Virus record (IMG/VR): IMGVR_UViG_2713896778_000030
DNA: 4,253 nt
From: a virus
Lineage: Duplodnaviria; Heunggongvirae; Uroviricota; Caudoviricetes
Strand: one strand, 5' to 3'
The notes under the pieces are model-generated. The model saw only the letters and a program-made list of their open reading frames with translations, did not search any database and was not told the origin of the DNA. Shown here one piece after another: positions 1-3,274 of this stretch (position 1 is its first letter; each line of letters starts with the position of its first letter). A program made the translations under genes and the position numbers.

Positions 1-64
1 GAGACTTTCTGAAGTAAAGGCGCATACCGCTTAGTTACCGCTCTGATAACTCTTACCTGTCCTG

Positions 65-97
65 CAATGGCGCTGATGTCAATATAAAGCGCCATTG
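65..97. other. Perfect 10-bp inverted repeat (stem-loop); possible + strand terminator
   Basis: CAATGGCGCT (65-74) and AGCGCCATTG (88-97) are exact reverse complements with a 13-nt loop. A C/T-rich tract CTGCTTCTTTGCC follows on the + strand. All three + frames have stops within the first 35 nt, so an upstream + strand gene could end just before it. Confidence 0.35.
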
Positions 98-335
98 CTG
101 CTTCTTTGCCGATCCCGGGATGCCTTCCATTCTGATGTTTGACTTCGCCCACTGAGAAACCCTCTGTTTCCCCTTAACGCCGGGGTAGCGGAACAAAAAC
201 CTGCTGCATAGTTATTAAAGTTGAACCCTGCCGTCATGTTCATACGCCTCGGGCTGGCTACTTAACCCCTGACCACTGCCGGGTAACTCGAAGTATTTCC
301 CTGCGTTCTGTGGGGCGGGGTGGGTTGGTATTTTT

Positions 336-363
336 AGTTTAATAAACATTAAACTTAAGTCAA
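336..363 (-). promoter_or_regulatory. Leftward PL-like promoter (-35 TTGACT, 16-nt spacer, -10 TAAACT on the minus strand)
   Basis: The reverse complement of 358-363 (agtcaa) is TTGACT and of 336-341 (agttta) is TAAACT. These are the same two hexamers as the rightward promoter at 1351-1380. An operator-like palindrome covers the spacer and -10. Confidence 0.4.
337..354. promoter_or_regulatory. Operator candidate OL: 18-bp palindrome GTTTAAT-AAAC-ATTAAAC
   Basis: The 7-bp arms GTTTAAT and ATTAAAC are exact reverse complements around a 4-bp spacer AAAC. It has the same architecture and spacer as the site at 1362-1379. Confidence 0.5.
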
Positions 364-376
364 GTAAAAACTAAAC
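359..376. promoter_or_regulatory. Degenerate second operator-like site ending in ACTAAAC
   Basis: gtcaagt-aaaa-ACTAAAC: the right arm is the conserved heptamer and the left arm matches the consensus at about 5 of 7 positions. The following CTAAACCG-N-GG (371-381) recurs at 1393-1403. Confidence 0.3.
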
Positions 377-386
377 CGCGGGACAT

Positions 387-419
387 AACAAACACAACGC
401 TTTTGATAAAGTCGTTGCG
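387..419 (-). terminator. Weak candidate intrinsic terminator downstream of the toxin gene
   Basis: On the minus strand, cgcaacg (rc of 413-419) pairs with cgttgtg (rc of 393-399), giving 7 bp including one G-U, with a 13-nt loop, followed by TTTGTT (rc of 387-392). The stem is short and the U tract is interrupted. Confidence 0.25.
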
Positions 420-447
420 GTTGTTATGTTTCTATTGGTAGTGAAAG

Positions 448-726
448 TTAGGGAAACTGGCGTCTTGCGTGGATCACGTTTACTACTTCAACGCTTGATG
501 TTGTTACGCGGTATAGAATTATATAGTTAGGGTGGGCTACAATCTCACGCAAGCCAGGTACTCTGTCGCTTGGTGGGTATAAATACGGATGTTCGGATAA
601 CGGCAGCACACAACCCCTTAATCGCTGCCATAAGCGTTCAGCCGCATCTATGTCGAAACGAGCAATATAACTAGTTATATCATCTAGGTCGGTATCTGCG
701 CTTTCAAGCCATAACACGGGTAACAT
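448..726 (-). CDS. parE2: ParE-family type II toxin (RelE/ParE fold), 92 aa
   Basis: Minus-strand ORF with ATG at 726-724 and TAA at 450-448. Protein begins MLPVLWLESADTDLDDITSYIARFD and ends VVNVIHARRQFP; length and N-terminal pattern fit ParE toxins. The start is 1 nt after the antitoxin stop (TAA-a-ATG), with a GGAG Shine-Dalgarno (rc of 739-742) inside the antitoxin 3' end. The symbol is recalled from the three-component paaR-paaA-parE systems of E. coli O157:H7; paralog 1 versus 2 cannot be resolved from memory. Confidence 0.75.
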   Translation of the reverse strand: MLPVLWLESADTDLDDITSYIARFDIDAAERLWQRLRGCVLPLSEHPYLYPPSDRVPGLREIVAHPNYIILYRVTTSSVEVVNVIHARRQFP

Positions 727-727
727 T

Positions 728-919
728 TTACTGCTTGCTCCGTTCCTTGCGCATCTTAGCAAAGCGTTCTGCCATTCTGCGCTCAACTTCGTCATGGGGA
801 ATTGCTGGGCGCGGATCTGCAAGGCTCGTTGCTACTTTCGCACGCAGCCATTCGTTGTAACTGTTTTCTTGTTCAATGGTTTCAAATTCAGAAACCATTG
901 GTGAAAGGGCTCTATTCAT
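728..919 (-). CDS. paaA2: Small antitoxin partner of ParE (PaaA-like), 63 aa
   Basis: Minus-strand ORF with ATG 919-917 preceded by GGAGGA (rc of 923-928) and TAA at 730-728. Protein MNRALSPMVSEFETIEQENSYNEWLRAKVA...KMRKERSKQ is highly charged, as expected for a small disordered antitoxin. It sits immediately upstream of and coupled to the ParE gene. The 63-aa length matches my recollection of PaaA2. Confidence 0.65.
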   Translation of the reverse strand: MNRALSPMVSEFETIEQENSYNEWLRAKVATSLADPRPAIPHDEVERRMAERFAKMRKERSKQ

Positions 920-939
920 GTTTCCTCCGGTTTTATAAC

Positions 940-1311
940 TCAGGCGCGGCGGCATTTTTGCGCCGCAATCCATCTCGCTATGAGATCTTCCATTGATTCT
1001 TTTTTCTGCTTTAACTCGCTGATTATCTGGCGTTGCTCATCCTCAGGGAAGGCTGAAAAAATCTGCAATAATTCCAGTTGATTAGACGTTAACCCTGCAT
1101 GTGGTGGAGAAACCCCCGGTTGTTCTGCGTATTCCGCATCCAGATACCCTTCCGGCATCCCGTATGTTTGCTCTATTCTTCTGGCAGCCTTTTCTCCAAA
1201 CGAGGCTCTCCCACTCATTAGTTGAGATAGGTAGCTCTTCTCTTTGGGTGGCAGAGTTTTATCTTTAAACCACTCCTTGAGACGTAAACGGCGAATTTCT
1301 TTTTTTTGCAT
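940..1311 (-). CDS. paaR2: HTH transcriptional regulator (PaaR-like); putative CI-type prophage repressor, 123 aa
   Basis: Minus-strand ORF with ATG 1311-1309 and TGA 942-940. Protein starts MQKKEIRRLRLKEWFKDK and carries an HTH with recognition-helix-like segment KSYLSQLMSGRASFGEKAARRIEQ. It is first in the operon with the antitoxin and toxin and divergent from a cro-like gene. There is no Shine-Dalgarno; a -10-like hexamer sits 6 nt upstream of the ATG. The upstream in-frame ATG at 1374 would lie inside the divergent promoter region. Confidence 0.65.
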   Translation of the reverse strand: MQKKEIRRLRLKEWFKDKTLPPKEKSYLSQLMSGRASFGEKAARRIEQTYGMPEGYLDAEYAEQPGVSPPHAGLTSNQLELLQIFSAFPEDEQRQIISELKQKKESMEDLIARWIAAQKCRRA

Positions 1312-1317
1312 GTGGTA

Positions 1318-1346
1318 ATTATCTTTAGTAATCACTAAACAAGCAA
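1318..1346 (-). promoter_or_regulatory. Leftward PRM-like promoter for the repressor operon
   Basis: On the minus strand, -35 TTGCTT (rc of 1341-1346), a 17-nt spacer, and -10 GATAAT (rc of 1318-1323). The spacer is exactly the 18-bp operator-like site at 1323-1340. The predicted transcription start falls at or next to the A of the ATG at 1311. Confidence 0.4.
1323..1340. promoter_or_regulatory. Operator candidate (OR, PRM-proximal): cTTTAGT-aatc-ACTAAAC
   Basis: TTTAGT (1324-1329) and ACTAAA (1334-1339) are exact reverse complements around a 4-bp spacer. It shares the heptamer ACTAAAC with the sites at 1373-1379, 1392-1398 and 370-376. Confidence 0.5.
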
Positions 1347-1350
1347 ATAC

Positions 1351-1380
1351 TTGACTCAATGGTTTATTAAACACTAAACT
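1351..1380 (+). promoter_or_regulatory. Rightward PR-like promoter for the cro-like operon
   Basis: -35 TTGACT (1351-1356), an 18-nt spacer, and -10 TAAACT (1375-1380). The hexamers are the same as in the leftward promoter at 336-363. The -10 lies inside the operator-like site at 1362-1379. Confidence 0.45.
1362..1379. promoter_or_regulatory. Operator candidate (OR, PR-proximal): GTTTAtT-aaac-ACTAAAC
   Basis: 7-bp arms with one mismatch around spacer AAAC; same spacer and arm consensus as the site at 337-354. Confidence 0.5.
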
Positions 1381-1387
1381 CGCAAAA

Positions 1388-1398
1388 AAACACTAAAC
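1388..1398. promoter_or_regulatory. Operator half-site aaac-ACTAAAC
   Basis: Third copy of ACTAAAC preceded by the AAAC spacer motif, with no matching left arm. It lies between the PR -10 and the cro-like Shine-Dalgarno. Confidence 0.3.
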
Positions 1399-1408
1399 CG
1401 AGGAAGGT

Positions 1409-1711
1409 ATGACATTAAAAGAGTTTATTAAATCATTAAGGGTTGGTGATGCTAAGAAATTCGCGGCCAGACTTGGTGTATCGCCATCTTACTTATCGCA
1501 AATGGCGTCTGGACGAACAGCTATATCTCCAACCCGCGCCCTTATGATCGAATCTGCGACGGAAGGCCAAGTAAGTAGGGCGGAGCTACGACCTCATGAT
1601 TGGGAGCTTATTTGGCCTGAGTATGCGAGCGGCATTCGTTTGGGGCAAACACATGTAGTTCATGCTGAAGGTGATTGTAGTGCATGCTTATCTGATGGAG
1701 TTGATTCATGA
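1409..1711 (+). CDS. Cro/YdaS-like HTH DNA-binding protein, 100 aa
   Basis: ATG 1409 preceded by AGGAAGG (1401-1407). HTH segment AKKFAARLGVSPSYLSQMASGRTAISPTRALMIESAT resembles the YdaS/Cro family. It is divergent from the repressor gene. The stop TGA 1709-1711 overlaps the next ATG (ATGA). Confidence 0.65.
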   Translation: MTLKEFIKSLRVGDAKKFAARLGVSPSYLSQMASGRTAISPTRALMIESATEGQVSRAELRPHDWELIWPEYASGIRLGQTHVVHAEGDCSACLSDGVDS

Positions 1712-2198
1712 AAATCAAGCATGAACACATCCGCATGGCGATGAATGTCTGGGCGCATCCGGACGGCGAAAAAGTACCGGCTGCGAAAATTACCAAAGCG
1801 TATTTCGAGCNNNNNNNNNNNNNNNNNNNNNNNNNNNNNNNNNNNNNNNNNNNNNNNNNNAAGCGTATTTCGAGCTGGGAATGACGTTCCCGGAACTGTA
1901 TGACGACAGCCATCCGGAAGCCCTGGCCCGTAATACCCAGAAAATTTTCCGTTGGCTGGATAAAGACACCCCTGATGCTGTTGAAAAAATGCAGGCTCTG
2001 TTACCGGCGATCGAAAAGGCGATGCCGCCTTTGCTGGTGGCCCGTATGCGCAGCCACAGTTCTGAATATTACCGTGAGATCGTCGAACGGAGGGAGCGGC
2101 TGGTGAAGGATGTCGATGATTTTGTTGCGTCAGCGGTTGTTTTGTATGACCAGATGAATCGCGGCGGCCCGGCAGGGAATGCTGTGGTGATGCACTAA
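1708..2198 (+). CDS. YdaT-family (CII-like) regulatory protein, interrupted by an N run; about 141 aa once the gap artefact is removed
   Basis: ATG 1708; the N-terminus MKIKHEHIRMAMNVWAHPDGEKVPAAKITKAYFE reads up to the N run. After the N run the sequence (K)AYFELGMTFPELYDDSHPEALARNTQKIFRWLDKD...VVMH continues to TAA 2196-2198 in a frame offset by 2. A 15-mer is duplicated on both sides of the gap. Family assignment is recalled similarity to Rac-prophage YdaT and gene order after the cro-like gene. Confidence 0.6.
1811..1860. other. Assembly or scaffold gap (50 N) with duplicated flanks
   Basis: The 15-mer aagcgtatttcgagc occurs at 1796-1810 and again at 1861-1875. The two flanking reading frames differ by 2, which equals 65 mod 3 (50 N plus one copy of the 15-mer). 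Confidence 0.8.
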
Positions 2199-2220: not shown

Positions 2221-3183
2221 ATGAGCAGCAAGCTTCATGGTCTTGTCTGGGAAGGGTGCGCCTTCACCGGCATGATCTTATCCAGGGTGGCGGTTATGGC
2301 CCGTCTTGCAGACTACAGCAATGACGAGGGCGTGTCATGGCCTGCCATTGAAACTATCCGGCGTCAGATCGGTGCAAGAAGTGAATCCACAGTGAAATCG
2401 GCTATTGCAGAACTGGCGAAAGAGGGCTGGCTGACGAAGGAAGAGCGTAAGGTCGGTGGGCGTAATGTAAGCAATATCTATCGGCTTAATGTGGAAAAAC
2501 TCGAAGCAGCTGCGGCGGCGGCGCGTGAGTCATATAAACCGAAAAGAAAAATTAGCCCGGCAAAAAATGACCCGTTAACAGTTGACCCGTCAAATATTGA
2601 CCCCTCAACGGTTGACCCGTCAAATTTTGATGGATCAACTGTTGATAAAAAACTGCCGATTAGGGGGGCGATGATTGACCCCGATCCGTCAGTATTAAAA
2701 CCTGATCCGTCAGATAAAAGATCTTCTTGTCCGGACGCTTCGCAACCGGACCCGCAGACGGCTGAACAGGATTTTTTAACCCGACACCCTGACGCGGTTG
2801 TGTTCAGTGCGAAAAAACGCCAGTGGGGAAGTCAGGAAGATTTGGTGTGCGCACAGTGGATCTGGGGACGAATCGTGAGTCTTTACGAGCAGGCGGCCAG
2901 CGATGATGGCGAGATCACTAGACCGAAAGAACCCAACTGGACAGCATGGGCCAATGACGTTCGCACAATGCGGATGCTGGATGGCAGAACTCACAGACAA
3001 ATTTGTGAAATGTTTGGGCGTCTCCAGCGGGATTCGTTCTGGGTAAAAAACATCATGAGTCCGGCAAAACTCCGGGAAAAATGGGATGAACTGGTTATCC
3101 GCCTGGGGCGTTCGCCTGCGCAGCGTTGCGTGAATCACATTTCTGAACCGGACACTGAAATACCGCCGGGCTTCAGGGGGTAA
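2221..3183 (+). CDS. Phage replication initiator (O-like), 320 aa
   Basis: ORF 2206-3183 in the supplied track opens at GTG; the preferred start is ATG 2221, 4 nt after GGGGG. The N-terminal region (LSRVAVMARLADYSNDEGVSWPAIETIRRQIGARSESTVKSAIAELAKEGWL) looks like the winged-helix N-domain of phage replication initiators. A central linker has tandem peptide repeats DPLTVDPSNIDPSTVDPSNFDGSTVD encoded by iteron-like DNA repeats. The C-terminal domain is not recognised specifically. Confidence 0.65.
   Translation: MSSKLHGLVWEGCAFTGMILSRVAVMARLADYSNDEGVSWPAIETIRRQIGARSESTVKSAIAELAKEGWLTKEERKVGGRNVSNIYRLNVEKLEAAAAAARESYKPKRKISPAKNDPLTVDPSNIDPSTVDPSNFDGSTVDKKLPIRGAMIDPDPSVLKPDPSDKRSSCPDASQPDPQTAEQDFLTRHPDAVVFSAKKRQWGSQEDLVCAQWIWGRIVSLYEQAASDDGEITRPKEPNWTAWANDVRTMRMLDGRTHRQICEMFGRLQRDSFWVKNIMSPAKLREKWDELVIRLGRSPAQRCVNHISEPDTEIPPGFRG
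2566..2655. repeat. Candidate replication origin: tandem 15-bp iteron-like repeats inside the initiator gene
   Basis: Head-to-tail 15-bp units: aatgacccgttaaca (2566-2580), gttgacccgtcaaat (2581-2595), attgacccctcaacg (2596-2610), gttgacccgtcaaat (2611-2625, identical to unit 2), tttgatggatcaact (2626-2640), then an A-rich unit gttgataaaaaactg (2641-2655). The core TTGAC-CC-GTCAA has inverted-repeat arms. Related copies (tgaccccgatccgtcag, cctgatccgtcag) lie at 2676-2713. Confidence 0.55.
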
Positions 3184-3224: not shown

Positions 3225-3274
3225 NNNNNNNNNNNNNNNNNNNNNNNNNNNNNNNNNNNNNNNNNNNNNNNNNN
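3225..3274. other. Gap (50 N) removing the 5' end of the following gene
   Basis: AGGAGG (3214-3219) lies 5 nt before the N run, and an open reading frame resumes at the first base after it (3275). No duplicated flank is visible here. Confidence 0.7.

What the first reader, a model, noticed from the sequence alone, without database searches (positions are those of the whole stretch)
1309..1323. Repressor mRNA is probably leaderless
The minus-strand -10-like hexamer GATAAT (rc of 1318-1323) ends 6 nt before the repressor ATG (1311-1309) and there is no Shine-Dalgarno between them, so the predicted start is at or next to the A of the ATG. Lambda cI transcribed from PRM is a well-known leaderless mRNA, so the parallel supports both the start-codon choice and the repressor assignment.
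Basis: partly seen in the sequence, partly recalled or inferred. Interest (0 to 1): 0.45.

Follow-up and report, generated by a model that had tools for sequence, protein, structure and literature searches.

The report
Leaderless paaR2 prophage repressor mRNA

Summary
On the minus strand GATAAT (1323..1318) is followed by six bases (TACCAC) and then the ATG at 1311..1309. No Shine-Dalgarno lies upstream. A weak -35 (TTGCTT, 1346..1341) sits 17 nt upstream of the -10. One error: the in-frame upstream start at 1374 is GTG, not ATG.

The gene is paaR2, the CI-like repressor of a CP-933P/Sp12-type lambdoid prophage of Shiga-toxigenic E. coli, followed by paaA2-parE2 and facing ydaS-ydaT. The window is 100% identical to E. 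coli O121 over the 1401 bases compared (400..1800). It differs from O157:H7 by 4 bases in 1..1810, none in the -35, -10, spacer or ATG.

Jurenas et al. 2021 (mBio, PMC8630535) mapped the PRM933P start by 5' RACE onto the paaR2 start codon.

New here: in 41 related loci, mostly Enterobacterales and Burkholderiales, the -10 to ATG distance is 6 nt in 38, while those six bases vary freely. The start is always ATG. The opposite cro-like gene has a variable, SD-bearing leader. Interest is low.

The parts
1309..1311 (-). paaR2 start codon ATG. Its A (1311) is the inferred +1 of the PRM933P-type transcript.
   Evidence: Sequence read. RefSeq also starts the CDS here (WP_001169687.1, 123 aa). 5' RACE in EDL933 places +1 at the translation start (PMC8630535). 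The homologs' N-termini align at this Met.
1312..1317 (-). 6-nt discriminator TACCAC between the -10 and +1. It contains no SD.
   Evidence: In 41 homologous loci the length is 6 in 38, with 38 distinct sequences. Information content is 0.05-0.22 bits per column.
1318..1323 (-). -10 hexamer GATAAT (5 of 6 matches to TATAAT).
   Evidence: The equivalent hexamer in homologs is CAAAAT, CACAAT, GACAAT or TAAACT. A-11, A-9 and T-7 are invariant, though A-11 and T-7 are partly invariant by my selection rule.
1323..1340 (-). 18-bp imperfect palindrome GTTTAGTGATTACTAAAG (operator, IR1 type). It fills the PRM spacer and overlaps the first base of the -10.
   Evidence: Repeats. ACTAAAC occurs 4 times in the window against 0.47 expected. 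The paper reports 18-bp palindromes with consensus GTTTAGTAA overlapping PRM933P, and PaaR2 and YdaS footprints.
1341..1346 (-). -35 hexamer TTGCTT (3 of 6 matches), 17-nt spacer.
   Evidence: TTTGCTTGT is invariant in the 9-sequence alignment. The assignment is inferred from spacing, because the paper's Fig. 1B is not readable here.
940..1311 (-). paaR2 CDS (123 aa plus stop). CI-like repressor without an S24 peptidase domain. This is the V67 allele.
   Evidence: No Pfam family matched.
728..919 (-). paaA2 antitoxin, co-transcribed downstream of paaR2.
   Evidence: Pfam PaaA2, E = 1e-19. RefSeq CDS.
448..726 (-). parE2 toxin.
   Evidence: Pfam ParE_toxin, E = 2e-16. RefSeq CDS.
1351..1380 (+). 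Divergent PR-type promoter TTGACT-18-TAAACT for ydaS-ydaT.
   Evidence: Promoter scan. It is conserved in homologs. PR933P was mapped by RACE in the paper.
1409..1711 (+). ydaS (Cro analogue). It is leadered, with the SD AGGAAGG at 1400-1406.
   Evidence: Pfam YdaS_toxin/HTH_3. Sequence read.
1617..1736 (-). PRE933P-type fragment with the YdaT box TTGATT-N6-AATCAA (1701-1718). It is the source of an alternative, leadered paaR2 transcript.
   Evidence: The PRE primers map exactly. PRE activation by YdaT is reported. The YdaT box motif is in the abstract of PMC9986795 and.

Best explanation
Coordinates 1309-1323 hold the -10 element, the discriminator and the +1/start codon of the maintenance promoter (PRM933P type) of paaR2. 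paaR2 is the CI-like repressor gene of a CP-933P/Sp12-like lambdoid prophage.

The proposed mechanism is as follows.
- RNA polymerase with sigma-70 uses TTGCTT-17-GATAAT and starts at the A of the ATG.
- The paaR2-paaA2-parE2 mRNA therefore begins with AUG and has no 5' UTR or Shine-Dalgarno.
- It is translated by the leaderless route, in which the ribosome binds a 5'-terminal AUG, as for lambda cI from PRM.
- The promoter is weak. Its spacer is filled by an operator palindrome bound by PaaR2 and YdaS.
- PaaR2 stimulates PRM at low level and represses it at high level. YdaS shuts it off.
- A second, YdaT-activated promoter (PRE type, about 400 nt upstream) can supply a leadered transcript.

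What is shown and what is inferred:
- Shown in the literature for the near-identical allele: the transcription start, the product size, the footprints and the regulation.
- Shown here: the sequence geometry, identity to that allele, and conservation.
- Inferred: that the same start is used with this allele (C at 1357, V67), and the ribosomal route of initiation.
For: Geometry.

Identity with the characterised locus:
- 100% match to E. coli O121 over the 1401 bases compared, 400..1800.
- Only 4 differences from O157:H7 strain 86-24 in 1..1810, none within 1309-1346.
- 30 of 30 published primers map, 29 of them exactly.
- The O157 allele plus His6 gives 15,081.0 Da, exactly the published mass.
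- Residues 1-66 are identical to PDB 7NKV/8C3K.

[quoted passage not shown] Footprints and regulation are.

Support computed here:
- The chance level is low.
- The first 35 nt of the mRNA are predicted unpaired. MFE is -3.4 against -6.7 kcal/mol for shuffles, and 194 of 200 shuffles fold at least as well.
- Lambda has the same geometry, TAGATT-TAACGT-ATG.
- In 41 homologous loci the -10 to ATG distance is 6 nt in 38, 5 in 2 and 7 in 1. There are 38 different discriminator sequences. The start is always ATG.
- 27 of the 41 have no alternative in-frame start upstream before a stop.
- In the same loci the PR -10 to cro-like start distance varies from 22 to 32 nt (one case of 51), and each has an SD.
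Against: - No transcript data exist for this exact allele. The window has C rather than T at 1357, which is 46 nt upstream of +1 in the operator region. This could alter regulation, but not the promoter core.
- The promoter is below the threshold of the consensus scan.
- In the paper, N-terminal sequencing and the mass measurement were done on the pBAD construct that already lacks upstream sequence. For the native context the evidence is RACE (5 clones) plus equal band size.
- The hexamers the authors boxed (Fig. 1B and Table S1) could not be read. My -35/-10 assignment is therefore inferred.
- PRE-derived transcripts would be leadered, so 'leaderless' applies only to PRM transcripts.
Confidence: 0.94

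Rival explanations
1. PaaR2 is translated from a leadered mRNA and starts at an upstream in-frame codon: GTG 1374, or the GTG or TTG 8 and 16 codons upstream of 1311. The GATAAT would then simply be codons (Asp-Asn).
For: The reading frame is open for 27 codons upstream of the ATG. Automatic gene callers often choose such starts. P0001 (144 aa, 231 member sequences) and P0002 (150 aa, 153 member sequences) are examples.
Against: - The RACE start at the ATG excludes these codons from PRM transcripts.
- The protein made from its own promoter has the same size as the ATG-start construct.
- Homologs from many genera begin at the aligned Met.
- 27 of 41 related loci have no upstream in-frame start at all.
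- The upstream 'codons' are the conserved -35, operator and -10.
- No SD precedes any of these alternative starts.
Confidence: 0.03
2. The hexamer is conserved and placed there only because it belongs to the operator (the right flank of IR1). The real promoter for paaR2 would be elsewhere, for example the YdaT-dependent PRE-type promoter, so the functional mRNA would be leadered.
For: The operator palindrome 1323-1340 abuts and overlaps the hexamer. PRE933P exists and reaches PRM-like activity when YdaT is expressed. The whole roughly 60-bp core is free of indels across homologs, so the fixed spacing is not unique to the 6-nt segment.
Against: - The PRM933P fragment (1311-1384, bounded by the primers) drives gfp on its own and is regulated by PaaR2 and YdaS.
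- RACE on RNA from the EDL933 lysogen finds the 5' end at the ATG.
- PRE is silent without YdaT, and PaaR2 represses ydaT expression.
- The columns that never vary are the sigma-70 contact positions A-11 and T-7, together with A-9. A-11 and T-7 are partly invariant by my selection rule.
Confidence: 0.05

Closest known systems
paaR2 / PRM933P of cryptic prophage CP-933P (Sp12) of E. coli O157:H7 (Jurenas et al. 2021, mBio, PMC8630535)
   Same: It is the same gene and promoter.
- The -35, spacer, -10, discriminator and ATG are identical.
- The intergenic region is 97 bp.
- The gene order is the same: paaR2-paaA2-parE2 facing ydaS-ydaT-O.
- The published primers match.
- The leaderless start was mapped by 5' RACE.
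   Different: This is an allelic variant, identical to E. coli O121 over the 1401 bases compared (400..1800; ten records at 100% include O121 strains, and O26 strains are at 99.9%). The differences are V67 instead of G67 in PaaR2, C instead of T at 1357 in the operator region, and one synonymous change in ydaS.
Lambda cI transcribed from PRM
   Same: - It is a maintenance promoter divergent from PR with shared operators.
- The promoter is weak and is stimulated by its own repressor at low dose.
- The geometry is -10, then 6 nt, then ATG: TAGATT-TAACGT-ATG against GATAAT-TACCAC-ATG.
- The first codons are A-rich.
- A second, CII-type-activated promoter gives a leadered transcript.
   Different: - There is no detectable sequence homology in the promoter.
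- PaaR2 (123 aa) lacks the S24 self-cleavage domain.
- The paper reports four 18-bp palindromes rather than three operators.
- The operon carries a toxin-antitoxin pair instead of rexAB.
Leaderless cI and cro mRNAs of telomere phage PY54 (PMC4488713)
   Same: RACE shows a prophage repressor mRNA beginning with the AUG.
   Different: In PY54 cro is also leaderless. Here ydaS has a roughly 21-nt leader with an SD. The proteins and operators are unrelated.

Membership tests
Leaderless bacterial mRNA | The transcription start coincides with the first base of the start codon. | not testable with these tools
   No RNA data are available for the window. 5' RACE on the allele with an identical promoter core places +1 at the paaR2 translation start (PMC8630535). 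The geometry here fits that, with the -10 ending 6 nt before the A.
Leaderless bacterial mRNA | The start codon is AUG. Leaderless translation in E. coli strongly prefers a 5'-terminal AUG (from my own knowledge of the field, not checked here). | tested here: met
   ATG at 1311..1309. All 41 related loci with this promoter geometry also have ATG.
Leaderless bacterial mRNA | No Shine-Dalgarno or usable 5' UTR between the promoter and the start codon. | tested here: met
   No GGAG, GAGG or AGGA within 20 nt upstream. Only 6 nt separate the -10 from the ATG.
Leaderless bacterial mRNA | An accessible, unstructured 5' end. | tested here: met
   The first 35 nt are unpaired in the MFE and centroid structures. 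Folding is weaker than the shuffle mean (z = +1.49), and 194 of 200 shuffles fold at least as well. This is a prediction only.
PaaR2 (CP-933P repressor) family | Sequence identity to PaaR2, and the paaR-paaA-parE operon facing ydaS-ydaT. | tested here: met
   122 of 123 residues are identical to the O157:H7 protein. Residues 1-66 are identical to PDB 7NKV/8C3K. Pfam finds PaaA2, ParE_toxin, YdaS_toxin and YdaT_toxin in the neighbours.
Lambda CI / LexA-type (S24) repressors | A C-terminal S24 peptidase self-cleavage domain. | tested here: not met
   No Pfam hit for the 123-aa protein. Relatives that share the N-terminal domain at about 70-80% identity do carry PF00717. PaaR2 works like CI in the switch, but it is not an S24 family member.
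Lambdoid PR/PRM bidirectional switch | Divergent promoters that share repeated operators bound by both the repressor and the Cro analogue. | tested here: met
   PR was called by the scan. ACTAAAC occurs 4 times against 0.47 expected. Binding itself comes from the literature.

The most novel reading that the evidence does not exclude
The leaderless arrangement may not be a peculiarity of CP-933P. It may be a conserved, selected feature of the whole family of prophage repressors that share the PaaR2 N-terminal DNA-binding domain.

- The family includes both short PaaR2-like repressors and long S24-cleavable ones.
- Its members are mostly from Enterobacterales and Burkholderiales.
- The repressor ATG is locked exactly 6 nt after the -10 in 38 of 41 loci.
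- The six intervening bases vary freely.
- The opposite cro-like gene keeps an ordinary leader of variable length.
- Pasteurellaceae relatives have switched to an SD-led start.

I found no statement of this in the papers I read.
Probability: 0.6. Interest if true: 0.35.

Novelty: already known. Interest (0 to 1): 0.12.

Why it matters
For this window it matters little. The result was published, with experiments, for the same promoter.

It has practical value for annotation. Gene callers frequently extend paaR2 upstream to 144 or 150 aa, in clusters with hundreds of member sequences, because no SD marks the true start.

The comparative pattern gives a ready-made set of candidate natural leaderless mRNAs in many genera. 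It includes sister lineages that use an SD instead. That set could help in studying why maintenance-promoter repressor transcripts are so often leaderless.

Tried and rejected
- **Consensus promoter scan.** It did not call PRM, which scores 8 of 12 against a threshold of 9. This is not evidence against PRM, because it is a known weak, activator-assisted promoter.
- **Pfam on PaaR2.** No family matched.
- **EDL933 record.** I tried to retrieve it by adding the SNP implied by primer 'YdaS RT2' to the query. No record matched 100%. I used O157:H7 strain 86-24 as a proxy. Its PaaR2-His6 mass reproduces the published 15,081 Da.
- **First attempt at that query.** It changed the wrong base and was redone.
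- **Table S1 and Fig. 1B of the paper.** These hold the boxed hexamers but are not held as text.
- **P0004.** I asked whether this 73%-identical variant is the O157 paralogue PaaR1. It occurs in only 19 genomes, and no O157:H7 strain is among the 12 listed, so I did not label it.
- **Photorhabdus/Xenorhabdus homologs (L003-L011, L016, L018).** Their upstream region is different (cttataaataaaATG) with no clear -10 at the right spacing. I could not classify them.
- **RacR.** The Rac paper (PMC11879457) does not mention leaderless transcripts.

Full report
**What is in the sequence**

Read on the minus strand, the region is ...TTGCTT GTTTAGTGATTACTAAA GATAAT TACCAC ATG CAA AAA AAA GAA....

- GATAAT is the reverse complement of 1318-1323.
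- Six bases, TACCAC (1317..1312), follow it.
- The ATG is at 1311..1309, so its A is the 7th base after the hexamer, the usual +1 position.
- TTGCTT (1346..1341) lies 17 nt upstream of the hexamer.
- None of GGAG, GAGG or AGGA occurs in the 20 nt before the ATG.

The promoter scores 8 of 12 against consensus. That is why the consensus scan reported only the divergent promoter TTGACT-18-TAAACT at 1351-1380.

One detail of the finding is wrong. The in-frame start at 1374 is GTG, not ATG. Further in-frame GTG and TTG codons lie 8 and 16 codons upstream.

**Is it more than chance?**

- Only 1 of 143 ATG trinucleotides in the window, on both strands, has a hexamer matching TATAAT at 5 or more of 6 positions and ending 5-7 nt upstream. 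It is this one.
- Shuffling the 68% A+T intergenic region gives such a hexamer at exactly 6 nt in 1.2% of trials.
- With a -35 matching at 3 or more of 6 positions as well, the figure is 0.6%.

This is suggestive but not decisive on its own.

**What the locus is**

Pfam identifies the neighbouring genes.

| Window coordinates | Strand | Pfam match |
|---|---|---|
| 728-919 | - | PaaA2 |
| 448-735 | - | ParE toxin |
| 1409-1711 | + | YdaS-type HTH |
| 1881-2198 | + | YdaT |
| 2221-3183 | + | HTH_36 helix-turn-helix domain (the O-like replication gene; O identity rests on position) |

The repressor itself matches no Pfam family.

- The window (bases 400..1800) is 100% identical to E. coli O121 chromosomes and 99.9% or more to many other Shiga-toxigenic strains.
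- RefSeq starts the 123-aa CDS at the same ATG.
- Residues 1-66 are identical to PDB entries 7NKV and 8C3K, 'Phage repressor protein CI'.

This is the paaR2-paaA2-parE2 / ydaS-ydaT immunity region of a CP-933P (Sp12)-type cryptic lambdoid prophage.

**The claim is already published**

Jurenas et al. [quoted passage not shown] They report the following.

- A 97-bp intergenic region separates paaR2 and ydaS. In the window this is 1312..1408, also 97 bp.
- 5' RACE on EDL933 RNA gave a PRM933P start that 'matches the predicted translation start'.
- PaaR2-His made from its own promoter has the same size as PaaR2-His made from a construct with the ATG placed at the araB transcription start.
- The N-terminus is MQKKE and the intact mass is 15,081 Da.

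I checked that the window is the same object.

- All 30 gene-specific primers of their Table S3 map to the window, 29 of them exactly. These include the primers that bound PRM933P at 1311-1336 and 1364-1384.
- Against O157:H7 strain 86-24 the window has four differences in 1..1810: positions 200, 1112 (V67 instead of G67), 1357 (C instead of T, 46 nt upstream of +1) and 1594 (synonymous in ydaS).
- None of the four lies in 1309-1346.
- The G67 protein plus His6 computes to 15,081.0 Da, exactly the published mass. The O157 proxy therefore has the same computed mass as the protein the authors studied.

Two caveats apply. The N-terminal sequencing and mass were obtained from the pBAD construct that already lacks upstream DNA, so the native-context evidence is RACE plus band size. 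The hexamers the authors boxed are in a figure and an empty-text table that I could not read, so my -35/-10 assignment is inferred from spacing.

**How it works**

The same paper shows how the promoter is regulated.

- PaaR2 and YdaS footprints cover both promoters.
- There are 18-bp palindromes with consensus GTTTAGTAA.
- In the window one such palindrome, GTTTAGTGATTACTAAAG (1340..1323), fills the PRM spacer and touches the -10.
- The half-site ACTAAAC occurs 4 times in the window against 0.47 expected.
- PRM933P is weaker than PR933P. It is stimulated about 4-fold by low PaaR2 and repressed by high PaaR2 and by YdaS.
- A YdaT-activated PRE-type promoter between ydaS and ydaT gives an alternative transcript, which is necessarily leadered. 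In the window this fragment is 1617-1736, with the YdaT box TTGATT-N6-AATCAA at 1701-1718.

The 5' 35 nt of the predicted leaderless mRNA are unpaired in the predicted fold. Folding is weaker than the shuffle mean, and 194 of 200 shuffles fold at least as well.

Lambda itself has the same geometry, TAGATT-TAACGT-ATG.

**Comparative evidence gathered here**

A protein search found about 150 relatives.

- Most are 121-127 aa and begin at the aligned Met.
- A second set of about 210 aa carries the same N-terminal domain fused to an S24 peptidase.
- Several clusters from automatic gene calling are extended upstream: 144 aa with 231 members and 150 aa with 153 members. Their extra residues (...TKDN...) are the operator and -10 read as codons.

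A scan of one genome per species returned 63 loci. Of these, 38 share a recognisable core, and two E. coli-type variants obtained by look-up share it too. Most are from Enterobacterales (Yersinia, Enterobacter, Erwinia, Proteus, Brenneria, Klebsiella, Raoultella, Citrobacter, Pantoea and others) and from Burkholderiales (Mycoavidus, Glomeribacter, Pandoraea, Massilia, Caballeronia, Paraburkholderia and others). Nitrosomonas, Dechloromonas and Martelella loci are also among them. The core reads:

ACTAAAC-N5-GTCAAGTATTTGCTTGTTTAG-N4-TACTAATCAAAAT-N6-ATG.

Counting the window as well gives 41 sequences.

- The distance from the -10-like hexamer to the ATG is 6 nt in 38, 5 in 2 and 7 in 1.
- The intervening bases take 38 different sequences.
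- The start codon is ATG in all 41.
- 18 encode short repressors and 20 encode long S24 repressors.
- 27 have no alternative in-frame start upstream before a stop.

Column information content is 0.05-0.22 bits in the six discriminator positions. It is 2.0 bits at -11A, -9A, -7T and the ATG. A at -11 and T at -7 were part of my rule for locating the hexamer, so those two are partly invariant by construction. The -9 position and the low discriminator values are not.

There is an internal control. In the same loci the distance from the PR -10 to the cro-like start codon varies from 22 to 32 nt, with one case of 51, and each has an SD. However, the whole core between the repressor ATG and the PR -35 is free of indels, so the fixed 6 nt is part of a larger rigid block.

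Pasteurellaceae relatives instead have a GGAG-type SD 6-8 nt before the start (L046, L052, L054 and L058; L056 and L059 by eye). Photorhabdus and Xenorhabdus relatives have a different upstream region that I could not classify.

**Verdict**

The thing is already known, through direct experiments on a promoter identical in every functional element.

The only new element is the comparative pattern. It suggests that leaderless expression is a conserved property of this repressor family. That is an inference from sequence and needs 5'-end mapping in other members.

Noticed in passing
window 1811-1860 and 3225-3274: There are two runs of 50 N. The first is an assembly join, not missing sequence. 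The 15 bases AAGCGTATTTCGAGC are duplicated on both sides. In the O121 chromosome the two flanks overlap by exactly 15 nt, giving an intact 141-aa ydaT. The sequence after the second gap is not found as an exact, full-length match in the 13.4-kb stretch of the O121 record that I fetched (L001).
   Followed up: partly
proteins P0001 and P0002; window 1312-1374: Automatic gene callers often extend paaR2 upstream, to 144 aa from GTG 1374 (231 member sequences) or to 150 aa (153 member sequences). This is probably because the true ATG has no SD. The extra 'TKDN' residues are the operator and -10 read as codons.
   Followed up: yes
loci L020, L023, L027-L030, L036, L038, L040 and others: The PaaR2 N-terminal DNA-binding domain (about 60 aa, 70-80% identical) is found fused either to a short coiled C-terminus (PaaR2-like, about 123 aa) or to an S24 LexA-type peptidase (about 210 aa). 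This looks like modular exchange of the induction module on one operator-recognition module.
   Followed up: partly
L023 and L024 (Erwinia), L036, L028-L030, L043, L047: the 6 nt before the ATG: In some relatives the six-base discriminator is itself SD-like (GGGAGG, AGGAGG, AGAGGT, AAAGGT, TGGAGC, TGGAGA) and directly abuts the ATG. That is too close for a normal SD. It might matter for leadered PRE-type transcripts. It remains unexplained.
   Followed up: no
L044, L046, L052, L054, L056, L058, L059 (Pasteurellaceae): Homologous repressors in Haemophilus, Aggregatibacter, Pasteurella, Rodentibacter and Mannheimia appear to have an SD-type motif ahead of the start. The script scored a GGAG or GAGG 6-8 nt upstream in four of them (L046, L052, L054, L058). 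L044, L056 and L059 were read by eye. They are predicted to be leadered, a natural contrast group.
   Followed up: partly
window 2547-2621 and 2680-2713: 15-bp periodic repeats containing TTGACCC(G/C)TCAA lie inside the O-like replication gene (four copies). A second pair, CC(C/T)GATCCGTCAG, follows. These are probably origin iterons, as in the lambda O gene.
   Followed up: partly
window 1701-1718: The YdaT box TTGATT-CATGAA-AATCAA has the ydaT ATG (1708) inside its spacer. It matches the published CP-933P and Rac YdaT recognition site.
   Followed up: partly
window 1357 and 1112: This allele differs from the experimentally studied O157:H7 allele at 1357 (C for T). That base is directly 3' of the PR -35 and lies in the operator region. 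It also differs at codon 67 of PaaR2 (V for G), in the linker after the DNA-binding domain. The effect on the switch is unknown.
   Followed up: no
window 330-447: This is the PL933P-type promoter region downstream of parE2. It is bounded exactly by the published PL primers and contains another ACTAAAC operator half-site at 370-376.
   Followed up: partly
L003-L011, L016, L018 (Photorhabdus and Xenorhabdus): PaaR2 homologs at 47-53% identity have an unrelated upstream region (…CCCTAGATATATAGGTTCTTATAAATAAA-ATG). It has no SD, and a TATAAA ends only 4 nt before the ATG. Whether these are leaderless is unclear.
   Followed up: no
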